Assembly: GCF_054482595.1 (NCBI RefSeq)
Contig: NZ_CM137008.1
Strand: one strand, 5' to 3'
DNA length: 64,000 nucleotides
Of this stretch, positions 50,601 to 56,600 are shown in pieces. How positions within the stretch are numbered: the first letter of the stretch is position 1; every line of letters begins with the position of its first letter. Made by a program: the position numbers.

Positions 50601-53600
50601 TAACCCCACCACGGAAAACGTCGCCGCAGGTTTGAAATTACTTAAAGAAAATAATTGCGATAGCGTGATCTCCTTAGGCGGTGGTTCTCCGCACGACTGC
50701 GCAAAAGGTATTGCGCTGGTGGCAGCCAATGGCGGCGATATTCGCGATTACGAAGGCGTTGACCGCTCTGCAAAACCGCAGCTGCCGATGATCGCCATCA
50801 ATACCACGGCGGGTACGGCCTCTGAAATGACCCGTTTCTGCATCATCACTGACGAAGCGCGTCATATCAAAATGGCGATTGTTGATAAACATGTCACTCC
50901 GTTGCTTTCTGTCAATGACTCCTCTCTGATGATTGGTATGCCGAAGTCACTGACCGCCGCAACGGGTATGGATGCCTTAACGCACGCTATCGAAGCGTAT
51001 GTTTCTATTGCCGCTACGCCGATCACTGACGCTTGCGCACTGAAAGCCGTGACCATGATTGCCGAAAACCTGCCGTTAGCCGTTGAAGATGGCAGTAATG
51101 CGAAAGCGCGTGAAGCAATGGCTTATGCCCAGTTCCTCGCCGGTATGGCGTTCAATAATGCTTCTCTGGGTTATGTTCATGCGATGGCGCACCAGCTGGG
51201 CGGTTTCTACAACCTGCCACACGGTGTATGTAACGCCGTACTGCTGCCGCATGTTCAGGTATTCAACAGCAAAGTCGCCGCTGCACGTCTGCGTGACTGT
51301 GCCGCTGCAATGGGAGTGAACGTGACAGGTAAAAACGACGCGGAAGGTGCTGAAGCCTGCATTAACGCCATCCGTGAACTGGCGAAGAAAGTGGATATCC
51401 CGGCAGGCCTGCGCGACCTGAATGTGAAAGAAGAAGATTTCGCGGTTCTGGCGACTAATGCCCTGAAAGATGCCTGTGGCTTTACTAACCCGATTCAGGC
51501 AACTCACGAAGAAATTGTGGCGATTTATCGCGCCGCAATGTAATCATCATTCCAACAACGGCTGGCAAATTGTCAGCCGCTTTTTCAACTATCTCTGTAA
51601 TCCTTGCCCGTAAATTCGTGATAGCTGTCGTAAAGCTGTTACCGACTGGCGAAGATTTCGCCAGTCACGTCTACCCTTGTTATACCTCACACCGCAAGGA
51701 GACGATCATGACCAACAATCCCCCTTCAGCACGTGTTCAGCCCGGCGAGTATGGTTTTCCTCTTAAGTTAAAAGCACGCTACGACAACTTTATTGGCGGC
51801 GAATGGGTAGCCCCTGCCGACGGCGAGTATTACCAGAACCTGACGCCGGTGACCGGGCAGCTGCTGTGCGAAGTGGCGTCTTCGGGCAAACGAGACATCG
51901 ATCTGGCGCTGGATGCTGCGCACAAAGTGAAAGATAAATGGGCGCACACCTCGGTGCAGGATCGTGCGGCGATTCTGTTTAAGATTGCCGATCGAATGGA
52001 ACAAAACCTCGAGCTGTTAGCGACAGCTGAAACCTGGGATAACGGCAAACCCATTCGCGAAACCAGTGCTGCGGATGTACCGCTGGCGATTGACCATTTC
52101 CGCTATTTCGCCTCGTGTATTCGGGCGCAGGAAGGTGGGATCAGTGAAGTTGATAGCGAAACCGTGGCCTATCATTTCCATGAACCGTTAGGCGTGGTGG
52201 GGCAGATTATCCCGTGGAACTTCCCGCTGCTGATGGCGAGCTGGAAAATGGCTCCCGCGCTGGCGGCGGGCAACTGTGTGGTGCTGAAACCCGCACGTCT
52301 TACCCCGCTTTCTGTACTGCTGCTAATGGAAATCGTCGGTGATTTACTGCCGCCGGGCGTGGTGAACGTGGTCAACGGTGCAGGTGGGGAAATTGGCGAA
52401 TATCTGGCGACCTCGAAACGCATCGCCAAAGTGGCGTTTACCGGCTCAACGGAAGTGGGCCAACAAATTATGCAATACGCAACGCAAAACATTATTCCGG
52501 TGACGCTGGAGCTGGGCGGTAAGTCGCCAAATATCTTCTTTGCTGATGTGATGGATGAAGAAGATGCCTTTTTCGATAAAGCGCTGGAAGGCTTTGCACT
52601 GTTTGCCTTTAACCAGGGCGAAGTTTGCACCTGTCCGAGTCGTGCCTTAGTGCAGGAGTCAATCTACGAACGCTTTATGGAACGCGCCATCCGCCGTGTC
52701 GAAAGCATTCGCAGCGGTAACCCACTCGACAGCGTGACGCAAATGGGTGCGCAGGTTTCTCACGGGCAACTGGAAACCATCCTCAACTACATTGATATCG
52801 GTAAAAAAGAGGGCGCAGACGTGCTCACCGGCGGGCGGCGCAAGCTGCTGGAAGGCGAACTGAAAGACGGCTACTACCTTGAACCGACGATTCTGTTTGG
52901 TCAGAACAATATGCGGGTGTTCCAGGAAGAGATTTTTGGCCCGGTGCTGGCGGTGACCACCTTCAAAACGATGGAAGAAGCGCTGGAGCTGGCGAACGAT
53001 ACGCAATATGGCCTGGGCGCAGGTGTCTGGAGCCGCAACGGTAATCTGGCCTATAAGATGGGGCGCGGCATTCAGGCCGGGCGCGTGTGGACCAACTGTT
53101 ATCACGCTTACCCGGCACATGCGGCGTTTGGCGGCTACAAACAATCAGGCATTGGACGCGAAACCCACAAGATGATGCTGGAGCATTACCAGCAAACCAA
53201 GTGCCTGCTGGTGAGCTACTCAGATAAACCGTTGGGGCTGTTCTGATGTAAGAAGCTGGTCGCATCGGGTATTCATTGCCTGATGCGACGCTTACGCGTC
53301 TTATCATGCCTACGGGGACCTGACCGTAGGCCGGATAAGGCGTACACGCCGCATCCGGCATAAACAAAGCGCACGTTGTTACAATTTACGTTTTAAACCT
53401 ACGTGTGCAATAACCCAGACTACGCCAACAAAAGTGCGTTTCTGGGGCGTGTTTTGCCAGGAGTTTAATCTCGCGTTTCGATGGTGAGCGGGCAAACCAG
53501 ACCGTAAATCACCATTGGTATTCCGAGGACAATCAGCAATAAACGGTAGATTATTGAAGGTTTAATACGCTTAATCTGCATTGTGGATGTTTTACGGTTT

Positions 53601-56600
53601 TTAATCATAAATTTGGCCAATAGTTCCATTATTTCAATATGATAAGCCTCGACCTGTTAAAAAGCCAGGCAGCACACTTCAGGAAGTATATAAAAAACAA
53701 TATGTCGTTATATAAATAAGGAAATTGCACTGCATCATGGCATTTCATAATATGCGTTAATTGTTCTTTTTTATATTCTCTGAGGGAAATATGTTCCTGG
53801 ACTATTTTGCACTGGGAGTGCTTATTTTTGTATTTCTGGTGATATTCTATGGGATTATTATTTTACATGATATTCCCTACCTGATTGCTAAAAAACGTAA
53901 TCATCCTCATGCCGACGCCATTCATGTTGCAGGTTGGGTGAGTCTTTTTACGTTACATGTTATCTGGCCGTTTTTGTGGATTTGGGCCACGCTTTACCGC
54001 CCGGAGCGGGGATGGGGAATGCAAAGCCATGATTCATCCGTTATGCAACTGCAACAGCGCATTGCCGGGCTGGAGAAACAGCTCGCCGACATCAAATCCT
54101 CTTCTGCCGAGTAATACTTATGGATTTACTGATTATTTTGACCTATGTGGCTTTTGCATGGGCAATGTTTAAGATCTTCAAAATTCCCGTAAATAAATGG
54201 ACCATTCCCACAGCGGCCTTGGGTGGAATATTTATTGTCAGCGGTCTAATTCTGTTAATGAACTATAACCATCCGTATACCTTTAAAGCGCAAAAAGCGG
54301 TTATTTCTATTCCTGTTGTCCCACAGGTGACTGGTGTGGTGATTGAAGTGACGGATAAGAAAAATACGCTGATTAAAAAAGGTGAAGTGCTATTTCGACT
54401 GGACCCGACGCGTTATCAGGCGCGGGTGGATCGGCTGATGGCGGATATCGTTACCGCAGAACATAAACAGCGGGCGTTGGGCGCAGAGTTAGATGAGATG
54501 GTGGCGAATACTCAGCAGGCAAAGGCCACGCGGGATAAATTCGCTAAAGAGTATCAGCGTTACGCACGCGGCAGCCAGGCGAAAGTAAACCCGTTTTCAG
54601 AACGCGATATCGATGTGGCGCGGCAAAATTATCTGGCGCAGGAAGCCTCCGTAAAGTCATCGGCAGCGGAACAAAAACAGATCCAGAGCCAGCTGGATAG
54701 CCTGGTGTTGGGTGAACATTCTCAAATCGCCAGCCTGAAAGCGCAGCTCGCGGAAGCAAAATATAACCTTGAGCAGACGATAGTGCGTGCGCCGAGCGAT
54801 GGTTATGTGACCCAGGTACTGATTCGTCCGGGTACCTATGCCGCGTCGCTGCCGCTACGTCCGGTGATGGTGTTTATACCCGATCAGAAACGACAAATCG
54901 TGGCGCAGTTCCGTCAGAACTCCTTGCTGCGCCTGGCTCCCGGCGATGATGCGGAAGTGGTATTTAACGCTCTGCCAGGCAAAGTGTTCAGCGGTAAGCT
55001 GGCAGCCATTAGTCCAGCTGTTCCCGGCGGAGCTTATCAGTCGACCGGCACCTTACAGACGTTAAACACAGCGCCGGGTTCAGATGGCGTTATCGCGACC
55101 ATTGAACTGAATGAGCACACTGATTTGAGCGCTTTACCAGACGGTATTTACGCCCAGGTGGCGGTCTACTCTGATCATTTCAGCCATGTCTCGGTGATGC
55201 GCAAAGTGTTATTACGTATGACCAGCTGGGTGCATTACCTTTATCTCGATCATTAATCTTCGCTTTCCGCCGCTTGTTCAGGCCGCAATTGCTGCGACTG
55301 AGCAAGCTGGTGGCGAATTTCACGCAGCATTTCATCCAGCACATACTGGACCCGCCAGGGCTGGTATTCCCGTTTACGGAAGATAGCCACCAGATCCAGC
55401 CACCATTCATACGGGTGCTGAAAGCAGGGCACCAGCGTGCCGTCTTGCAGATCGCTCTGCACACTTTTGTCTGGCGCAAACACAATCCCCAGGTGATTTC
55501 GTGCCAGCTCCAGCGCCGATTGCGTGTTGTCGCAAACGTAATTTCCCTTCACGCGATAATCCCGCACCTCTTTACTCCCGGCGACGTTGAAGCGCCAGAT
55601 ATTCGCGTCGTCGATCATCATCGAGTCGATCAAAATACAGGAGTGATGTTCGAGTTCGTCAGGACGGCTAATAGGATGTTTCTCAAGATAGCGCTGGCTG
55701 GCATAAGCGGTTACGGCATATTGTGTAATAAAACTGGCAACCAGCGATTCATCTTTTGGTGGAGCGTAGCTGATTAAAACATCACAGTCATCAGGAAATT
55801 CGACGCCTTCATAAAAGGCATTACGCTCAAGATTGCAGGTTTTTAGCGATAAGGTGATATCACCGATATCTTTAATTTTATCGATTACATGTTTGGATAA
55901 ATAGGTAATTATGCCGGTTGGGGCGTAGATGGTGACCCGACCACGTTTCTCATGCTTATAATCTGCAATAAAATTATTAAGCTGCTCGTTTCTGTCCAGC
56001 ATGTCGTTGATGTACGGTAACAGCGCGGTACCAAAAGGTGTGAGCATCAGCTGCCGGGTGGTTCGGTCAAAGACTTTTAAACCCACTTTTGATTCAAAAT
56101 CAGCAAGATATTTGCTGACGTTGGCCTGTGCGATGCCAAGTACAGTCGCGGCATGGCTGATATTTTCACTGGCAGCGATTACCGAGATAATTTTTAACTC
56201 CCGGTACTTAAGTTGTAATTTTGTCATCGCAACAGCCCAATTATATATAATTTTATATATTACTATATAAATATGAATCTTGCACCGGAGAAATTGTAAG
56301 CATTACTATGCCGACTCTTTTTTATCTTATTTTAAAATGGAATACCGGACATGTTAATTAACCGCAATATTGTGGCGTTATTTGCGTTGCCTTTTATGGC
56401 AAGCGCAACTGCTTCTGAATTATCCATTGGTGCTGGTGCGGCTTATAATGAATCGCCTTATCGCGGTTATAATGAAAATACAAAGGCAATTCCGCTGATT
56501 AGCTATGAAGGTGATACTTTTTATGTTCGTCAGACCACGTTAGGTTTTATTCTGTCGCAAAGTGAAAAAAATGAACTTAGCCTGACCGCATCCTGGATGC

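What the first reader, a model, noticed from the sequence alone, without database searches (positions are those of the whole stretch)
53465..53608. Unannotated 47-codon ORF encoding a single-TM peptide between aldB and yiaW
The minus strand encodes MIKNRKTSTMQIKRIKPSIIYRLLLIVLGIPMVIYGLVCPLTIETRD: a basic N-terminus followed by one hydrophobic helix. It is below the 60-aa cutoff of the ORF track. There is no strong Shine-Dalgarno sequence, so it may be spurious, but the shape is typical of small membrane proteins.
Basis: seen in the sequence. Interest (0 to 1): 0.3.

Follow-up and report, generated by a model that had tools for sequence, protein, structure and literature searches.

The report
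Deletion remnant of a membrane-protein gene
The 47-codon ORF between aldB and yiaW is real, but it is what is left of a 104-codon membrane-protein gene after an in-frame 171-base deletion, and in E. coli it now evolves like unconstrained DNA, so it is most likely a decaying gene remnant and not a new small protein.

Summary
The ORF is at 53465-53608 (-) and encodes the quoted peptide. It is not a chance ORF and not a dedicated small-protein gene. Escherichia whittamii, cryptic-clade Escherichia, Citrobacter amalonaticus and 28 of 5,426 complete E. coli genomes carry a 104-codon gene at the same site, starting at the same ATG. This window, like K-12, BL21, O157 and roughly 3,800 of the 5,426 complete E. 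coli genomes, lacks codons 39/40-95/96. The 171 nt (57 codons) were lost between two 15-nt direct repeats.

The full-length protein belongs to a widespread ~100-aa family with no name: 256 representative clusters, no Pfam, NCBIfam or PDB match. AlphaFold predicts a two-helix membrane hairpin (pLDDT 86.6).

Full-length genes are under strong purifying selection (dN/dS 0.09-0.17). The deleted alleles are not: 13 nonsynonymous to 6 synonymous changes fits neutrality and differs from the full-length genes (Fisher p=0.017). Frameshifts, a stop loss, IS insertions and loss of the whole segment also occur.

RefSeq/PGAP already calls this ORF a "hypothetical protein"; only the curated K-12 record omits it. 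Whether it is translated could not be tested here. Verdict: an ordinary gene remnant of low interest.

The parts
53465..53608 (-). 47-codon ORF plus stop. It is the in-frame deletion remnant of the 104-codon gene, made of parent codons 1-38/39 fused to parent codons 96/97-104.
   Evidence: ORF; alignment with E. whittamii, E1V33 and C. amalonaticus shows a 171-column gap; tblastn and extraction of the alleles.
53492..53506 (-). Deletion junction: the single surviving copy, TACGGTCTGGTTTGC (codons 35-39), of the two direct repeats that flank the lost 171 nt in full-length genes.
   Evidence: the L089 repeats TACGGTCTGGTTTGC at 3172-3186 and TACAGCCTGGTCCGC at 3343-3357 lie 171 nt apart; in E. 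whittamii the repeats are 13/15 identical. This window keeps TGC (Cys39); K-12 has CGC (Arg39).
53609..53629 (-). Seven upstream in-frame codons from an alternative ATG, giving the 54-aa version (MELLAKF...). In K-12 this start is GTG.
   Evidence: No SD at a useful distance: GAGG lies about 18-21 nt upstream.
53609..53660 (-). Region immediately 5' of the ORF, where the parent gene's translation start region lies. It is the most polymorphic stretch of the spacer.
   Evidence: pi=0.094, with 14 segregating sites in 52 nt among 10 E. coli alleles.
53661..53790 (+). yiaWV promoter and 5'UTR, which shares this spacer with the remnant's upstream region. It is context, not part of the ORF.
   Evidence: Shimada 2014 (PMC3946193) reports an RpoD gSELEX peak assigned to yiaWV (CAGACA-17-TATAAA) and an H-NS site; a 43-49-nt core is 84-88% conserved in Citrobacter although no ORF is kept there.
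53240..53365 (.). REP/BIME elements between the aldB stop and the remnant's 3' end (flank).
   Evidence: sub-threshold naRNA4 matches, i.e. REP-derived; sequence.

Best explanation
The ORF is a gene remnant. An ancestral Escherichia gene between yiaW and aldB encoded a 104-aa inner-membrane protein with a basic N-terminus, helix 17-44, a short beta-hairpin loop and helix 59-95. In the lineage leading to most E. coli, slippage or illegitimate recombination between two 15-nt direct repeats (TACGGyCTGGTTTGC and TACAGCCTGGTyCGC) removed exactly 171 nt, or 57 codons. The loss covers the end of helix 1, the loop, all of helix 2 and the family's most conserved residues (G46, W52-N53, G59, G88-L89-W90). 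Because 171 is a multiple of three, the frame stayed open. What remains is 38 N-terminal codons joined to the last 9, which looks like a single-TM peptide. Since the deletion the sequence has drifted without detectable constraint, and it is being eroded further by frameshifts, IS insertions and segment loss. Shown: the homology, the deletion and its repeats, and the relaxed selection. Inferred: that the peptide has no function. Whether it is still translated is unknown.
For: 1. Full-length 104-codon orthologues sit at the same position and use the same ATG in E. whittamii (L011), Escherichia sp. E1V33 (L009) and C. amalonaticus (L012; 56% aa identity, no indels). The same holds in 28 of 5,426 complete E. 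coli genomes and in loci L089-L092 and L104, where PGAP calls it at 104 aa as WP_001064340.1.
2. The missing block is exactly 171 nt and is bounded by direct repeats.
3. The full-length form is ancestral. A profile of it finds 256 representative clusters (66 at E<=1e-10), mostly ~90-130 aa and matched nearly end to end.
4. Selection differs between the two forms. Full-length genes give dN/dS 0.09-0.17, and 0.08-0.21 over the same 47 codons. Deleted alleles mostly give 0.3-1.5; this window against K-12 has 10.5 nonsynonymous and 2.5 synonymous differences.
5. Site counts are 13 N: 6 S in deleted alleles (fits neutral, p=0.59) against 9 N: 21 S in full-length Escherichia genes (differs from neutral, p=6e-7). 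Fisher deleted versus full-length gives p=0.017.
6. Nucleotide diversity of the ORF is 0.052, close to yiaW third positions (0.061) and about twice yiaW overall (0.027).
7. Further decay is visible: frameshift variants (P0032, P0033, P0035), a stop loss (P0011), radical changes in the helix (G35D, L41R, G29E, L36R, L23S), small in-frame indels, and IS ends fused at six or more positions. There is an independent 5' deletion in Escherichia sp. MOD1-EC7003. About 1,600 genomes have lost the whole segment.
Against: The frame is open in all ten E. coli alleles I sequenced and in the large protein clusters. With about 19 segregating sites only about one nonsense change would be expected, so this is weak evidence. 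The upstream region and the ATG of the parent gene are retained. Full-length genes under purifying selection have the same weak SD, so translation of the remnant is not excluded. The window/O157 allele group carries changes that raise hydrophobicity (G27V, T30I; Kyte-Doolittle peak 2.53 against 1.71 in K-12) and the window allele also adds N-terminal positive charge. This could reflect selection, although dN/dS of 1.26 is not significantly above 1. Sample sizes for the selection tests are small (47 codons, 8 alleles).
Confidence: 0.8

Rival explanations
1. The truncated gene still makes a 47-aa, N-in single-pass membrane peptide that has kept part of the parent's role or gained a new one, for example by binding the parent's partner or a neighbouring membrane protein such as YiaW/YiaV.
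For: The ORF is open in every allele examined. The parent's start region is retained, and the parent shows purifying selection despite having the same weak SD. The retained 21 hydrophobic residues are long enough to span a membrane. The window allele is more hydrophobic, and more basic at its N-terminus, than the K-12 allele.
Against: The N:S ratio fits neutrality and differs significantly from the full-length genes. The ORF's diversity equals that of silent sites. Charged substitutions occur in the helix in natural alleles, along with frameshifts and multiple IS disruptions. No 47-codon form is conserved outside E. coli/Shigella. The most conserved family residues are deleted. No hit was found in the Ribo-seq supplements that could be searched, but those files were cut, so this is inconclusive.
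Confidence: 0.12
2. The DNA matters mainly as cis-regulatory sequence for the divergent yiaWV operon (an H-NS-bound, AT-rich spacer with promoter elements), and the open frame is incidental. This can hold together with the remnant explanation.
For: An RpoD holoenzyme gSELEX peak and an H-NS site are reported in the yiaW-aldB spacer (PMC3946193). A sigma-70-like site reading towards yiaW lies at 53614-53643, overlapping the ORF's first codons. Repeated IS insertions upstream of yiaW resemble activation of silenced operons.
Against: The conserved part of the spacer is 53661-53790, not the ORF. The ORF and the 52 nt upstream of it are the most variable parts. The single promoter-like hit is fewer than the 2.3 expected from shuffles.
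Confidence: 0.25
3. It is a chance ORF in AT-rich intergenic DNA with no coding history.
For: It is short, lacks an SD, and is absent from the curated K-12 annotation.
Against: Both of its halves are clearly homologous to a 104-codon gene under purifying selection.
Confidence: 0.01

Closest known systems
Full-length 104-aa hypothetical membrane protein of Escherichia (WP_001064340.1; clusters P0038/P0222) and its C. amalonaticus orthologue
   Same: Same locus (between yiaW and aldB), same strand and same ATG. Codons 1-38 and the last 9 codons are homologous: 74-89% aa identity over the first 38-39 residues.
   Different: The window ORF lacks 57 internal codons. The loss covers the end of helix 1, the loop, the whole second helix and the family's near-invariant G46, G59 and G88-L89-W90. 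It is also not under purifying selection.
Unnamed, widespread ~100-130-aa two-helix membrane-protein family (256 representative clusters; no Pfam, NCBIfam or PDB entry)
   Same: The parent gene is a typical member, matched end to end. The consensus pattern is R/K-x5-(I/V)-(Y/F)-K-L ... FG..T..WN ... GLW.YS..PL.
   Different: The window ORF matches only profile positions 1-39 and 96-104. The family's function is unknown and its genomic context varies.
Annotated E. coli K-12 gene remnants in the same neighbourhood (ysaC, ysaD pseudogenes next to yiaT)
   Same: Short leftovers of genes in the same variable chromosomal segment, marked as pseudogenes in NC_000913.3.
   Different: The aldB-yiaW remnant keeps an open frame with start and stop, so automatic pipelines call it a protein. 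The curated K-12 record lists nothing at this position.
Validated E. coli small inner-membrane proteins of 50 aa or fewer (from my own knowledge: AcrZ, KdpF, MgtS, YohP class)
   Same: Similar length, one hydrophobic helix, positive charges at the N-terminus.
   Different: As I recall, those proteins are conserved as small ORFs across genera and have experimental evidence of translation. This ORF is small only because of a deletion within E. coli, and it drifts neutrally.

Membership tests
Gene remnant / pseudogene by internal deletion | Clear homology to an intact, longer gene at the orthologous position in relatives | tested here: met
Gene remnant / pseudogene by internal deletion | An identifiable lesion that removes essential parts of the parent | tested here: met
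   A 171-nt deletion between direct repeats removes 57 of 104 codons, including helix 2 and the near-invariant residues.
Gene remnant / pseudogene by internal deletion | Relaxed selection compared with intact orthologues | tested here: met
   13 N: 6 S against 9 N: 21 S, Fisher p=0.017. dN/dS is mostly 0.3-1.5 against 0.09-0.17. ORF pi is similar to silent-site pi. The sample is small.
Gene remnant / pseudogene by internal deletion | Loss of expression or function | not testable with these tools
   No expression data were accessible. The Ribo-seq supplements held here were cut and gave no hit.
Unnamed ~100-aa two-helix membrane-protein family (parent family) | End-to-end match (about 95 residues) with two long helices and the WN loop and GLW.YS motifs | tested here: not met
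   The window ORF covers only profile positions 1-39 and 96-104; the motifs lie in the deleted part.
Bona fide bacterial small membrane proteins (50 aa or fewer) | Conserved as a small ORF beyond the species, with purifying selection | tested here: not met
   All 35 protein clusters are named E. coli, or carry no source name; members named Shigella appear. The related species that keep the gene have 104 codons. N:S fits neutrality.
Bona fide bacterial small membrane proteins (50 aa or fewer) | Predicted transmembrane helix | tested here: met
   Kyte-Doolittle 19-residue mean of 2.53 (window) and 1.71 (K-12). Hydropathy only; no dedicated TM predictor was available.
Bona fide bacterial small membrane proteins (50 aa or fewer) | Evidence of translation (ribosome profiling, tagging) | not testable with these tools
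   Searches gave nothing, and the files were incomplete.
Type I toxin (small hydrophobic peptide with an antisense RNA) | A known toxin or antitoxin RNA family, often in multiple copies per genome | tested here: not met
   Rfam finds only REP-like sub-threshold matches outside the ORF. There is one place per genome (median 1). No Pfam or NCBIfam hit reaches the curated cut-off.

The most novel reading that the evidence does not exclude
An in-frame deletion turned a two-helix membrane protein into a 47-aa single-pass microprotein that is still expressed from the parent's promoter. In the lineage of this window (MIKNRK..., G27V, T30I, Cys39) it is being reshaped by selection into a more hydrophobic and more basic peptide with a new role, for example modulating the adjacent YiaW/YiaV membrane proteins. 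That would be a documented case of microprotein birth by gene truncation.
Probability: 0.08. Interest if true: 0.45.

Novelty: new member of a known kind. Interest (0 to 1): 0.15.

Why it matters
This is mainly a matter of annotation hygiene. Thousands of RefSeq E. coli genomes carry this ORF as a 'hypothetical protein', and small-protein screens will keep flagging it as a candidate single-TM microprotein. Knowing that it is the in-frame stump of a 104-aa gene explains its shape and its lack of constraint, and it argues for marking it as a pseudogene. It also gives a natural pair of alleles, full-length in 28 genomes and deleted in roughly 3,800. That pair could be used to study the parent protein, which belongs to a fairly widespread membrane-protein family with no Pfam or NCBIfam model.

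Tried and rejected
- Rfam scan of 52800-54300 at a permissive threshold found only sub-threshold REP-like naRNA4 matches outside the ORF.
- The promoter/terminator scan found no minus-strand promoter for the ORF and no terminator.
- Pfam and NCBIfam scans of the 47-aa peptide, the full-length proteins and 91 family members gave nothing above threshold.
- A PDB sequence profile search gave no hit. A Foldseek search of the pLDDT-86.6 model against PDB gave nothing below E=1. The afdb50 library was unavailable.
- The first AlphaFold run, with 4 sequences, was too poor to use (pLDDT 59).
- Ribo-seq literature: the Weaver 2019 preprint has no supplements held here. The Stringer 2021 tables and the Fesenko 2024 tables contain neither the coordinates nor the peptide, but both files were cut when stored, so translation status remains open.
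- A search for a K-12 TSS dataset did not turn up a usable table.
- No paper mentions the RefSeq accessions.
- I considered the upstream 39-codon ORF (53629-53748) as the 'real' small gene, because its differences from K-12 looked synonymous-rich. I rejected this because it has in-frame stops in Citrobacter, has lost its start in E1V33, and overlaps the yiaW promoter.
- Genomic context of distant family members showed no conserved partner.
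Full report
**Observation.** The window is E. coli; 53380-53780 is 100% identical to strain XH990. The minus strand of 53465-53608 reads ATG to TAA and encodes MIKNRKTSTMQIKRIKPSIIYRLLLIVLGIPMVIYGLVCPLTIETRD. A 54-aa version starts at an upstream in-frame ATG at 53629. The ORF lies between aldB (+, ends 53246) and yiaW (+, 53791-54114) and converges on aldB. REP/BIME elements occupy about 53240-53365. The hydrophobic stretch is real: the Kyte-Doolittle 19-residue mean is 2.53 for residues 23-41. There is no usable Shine-Dalgarno.

"Unannotated" holds only for the curated K-12 record. PGAP annotates exactly these 144 nt as "hypothetical protein" in XH990, in PGAP-annotated K-12 and BL21, and in many other genomes. 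The exact peptide is in NCBI on at least 1000 contigs.

**What it is.** A protein search with the 47-aa peptide found 35 clusters; every one that carries a source name is named E. coli. Members named Shigella appear in the cluster look-up. I then fetched loci around YiaW homologues from one genome per species and searched them.

- In E. whittamii (L011) and Escherichia sp. E1V33 (L009), the first 38-39 codons and the last 14 codons of the ORF are both present, about 150 nt apart.
- ORF listing and alignment show that there, and in Citrobacter amalonaticus (L012), the same ATG opens a 104-codon gene.
- The E. coli ORF equals that gene minus 171 nt (57 codons).
- The C. amalonaticus protein is 56% identical to the E. 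whittamii protein over all 104 residues, with no indels.
- The full-length gene also survives in E. coli: 28 of 5,426 complete genomes carry the internal segment. Loci L089-L092 and L104 show it between yiaW and aldB, sometimes with hicAB in between, and PGAP calls it at 104 aa.

The deleted block is bounded by direct repeats. In L089 these are TACGGTCTGGTTTGC and TACAGCCTGGTCCGC, exactly 171 nt apart. In E. whittamii they are 13/15 identical with a 9-nt exact run. That is the signature of slippage or illegitimate recombination between short repeats. This window keeps TGC (Cys39) at the junction and K-12 has CGC (Arg39). The difference reflects either a different crossover point or a later C>T change, and I could not decide between them.

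About 3,800 complete genomes match this spacer. About 1,600, including ST131 and other B2-like strains, lack the ORF together with yiaWVUT and carry a GH127/MFS/AraC block instead.

**The parent gene.** A profile of four full-length proteins, searched by HMMER against 1.84 billion representatives, finds 256 clusters at E<=1e-3 and 66 at E<=1e-10. Most are about 90-130 aa and match nearly end to end. The 104-aa form is therefore ancestral and belongs to a real, widespread family.

- The family has no Pfam or NCBIfam model and no relative in the PDB.
- With a 91-sequence alignment, AlphaFold gives pLDDT 86.6: helix 17-44, a small beta-hairpin at 51-56, and helix 59-95, i.e. a two-helix membrane hairpin.
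- Foldseek against the PDB finds nothing significant.
- Genomic neighbours of distant members vary. One enteric relative sits next to aldB without yiaWV.
- Function is unknown.

The deletion removes the end of helix 1, the loop, all of helix 2 and the near-invariant G46, G59 and G88-L89-W90.

**Selection.**

- Full-length genes give Nei-Gojobori dN/dS of 0.09-0.17 (for example E. coli against E. whittamii, 19 synonymous and 6 nonsynonymous differences). Over just the 47 retained codons they give 0.08-0.21.
- The deleted alleles mostly give 0.3-1.5. Window against K-12 has 2.5 synonymous and 10.5 nonsynonymous differences. Window against full-length E. coli gives 1.26.
- Counting variable sites gives 13 N : 6 S among eight deleted alleles. 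This fits the neutral 3:1 site ratio (p=0.59).
- Full-length Escherichia genes give 9 N: 21 S (p=6e-7 against neutral). Fisher's test between the two sets gives p=0.017.
- Diversity of the ORF (pi=0.052) equals that of silent sites in yiaW (0.061) and is about twice that of yiaW overall (0.027). The 52 nt upstream of the ORF are the most variable part of the spacer (0.094).
- Database alleles add charged residues inside the helix, small indels, frameshifts, a stop loss, and IS ends fused at six or more positions in the first 17 codons.
- Escherichia sp. MOD1-EC7003 has an independent deletion of the 5' half.

**Mechanism and likelihoods.** Descent from the 104-codon gene by a 171-nt in-frame deletion is essentially certain. 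That the stump is functionless is inferred from relaxed selection and ongoing decay; I put it at about 0.8. The main rival, at about 0.12, is that the stump is still translated from the parent's start and has some role. Three points keep this alive. The frame is open in all ten alleles examined. The parent gene has the same weak SD and is clearly selected. The window/O157-type allele is more hydrophobic than the K-12 allele. Translation could not be tested, because the Ribo-seq supplements held here were missing or cut. The spacer also carries the yiaWV promoter and an H-NS site (PMC3946193), but the conserved part is 53661-53790, not the ORF.

**Comparison and verdict.** The ORF is not a member of the parent family in any functional sense, since the defining helices and motifs are gone. 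It also fails the evolutionary criteria for a genuine small membrane protein. It is best filed with other K-12 gene remnants, such as the nearby ysaC and ysaD. Interest is low. The useful outcomes are a corrected annotation and the pointer to an uncharacterised two-helix membrane-protein family that still has a naturally intact allele in a few E. coli strains.

Noticed in passing
window 53629-53748 (-): A 39-codon ORF (MKCHDAVQFPYLYNDILFFIYFLKCAAWLFNRSRLIILK) has a stop that overlaps the 54-aa start in a TAATG. It is intact in most Escherichia, although its start is ATA in E1V33. In Citrobacter it has in-frame stops. It overlaps the yiaW promoter and 5'UTR, so its conservation is probably that of regulatory DNA.
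   Followed up: partly
window 53698-53721 (-) and 56245-56275 (+); Citrobacter loci L012-L029 at about 2870-2920 and about 5450-5515: An AT-rich box, CCTTATTTATATAACGACATATTG, lies upstream of yiaW. It is 84-88% conserved in Citrobacter and resembles TATTTATATAGTAATATAT in the yiaU-yiaT spacer. It is a candidate site for the LysR regulator YiaU (LpsR) and has not been tested.
   Followed up: partly
window about 53560-53610 (ORF codons 1-17); L006: Many database ORFs are this peptide fused to IS ends at six or more different junctions. One complete genome has IS1A abutting yiaW with aldB-yiaY deleted. This points to an IS insertion hot spot in the H-NS-bound spacer upstream of yiaWV, possibly one that activates the operon.
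   Followed up: no
window from about 53314 rightwards through yiaW-yiaV-yiaU-yiaT; L007, L008: About 30% of complete E. coli genomes (ST131 and others) replace the remnant plus yiaWVUT with a GH127 glycosidase / MFS transporter / AraC block. Some also carry a type I restriction gene and hicAB next to aldB. In L008 only the last 9 codons of the ORF survive, abutting a REP element.
   Followed up: partly
L089-L091, 3381-3993: In several E. coli strains with the full-length gene, a hicA-hicB toxin-antitoxin pair is inserted between the gene and aldB. The end of hicB overlaps the gene's stop by 4 nt.
   Followed up: no
window 53240-53365: REP/BIME repeats lie downstream of aldB. They give three sub-threshold Rfam naRNA4 matches (33.7-38.6 bits against a gathering score of 59.5).
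   Followed up: no
window 53761 vs 53791: The mechanical ORF list starts yiaW at a TTG (53761, 117 aa). RefSeq starts it at the ATG at 53791 (107 aa), which has a GAGGG Shine-Dalgarno.
   Followed up: no
window 53492-53494: The junction codon is TGC (Cys) in this window, O157 and O111 RM9322, but CGC (Arg) in K-12, BL21 and others. Either the deletion recurred between the repeats or a C>T change followed a single deletion.
   Followed up: partly
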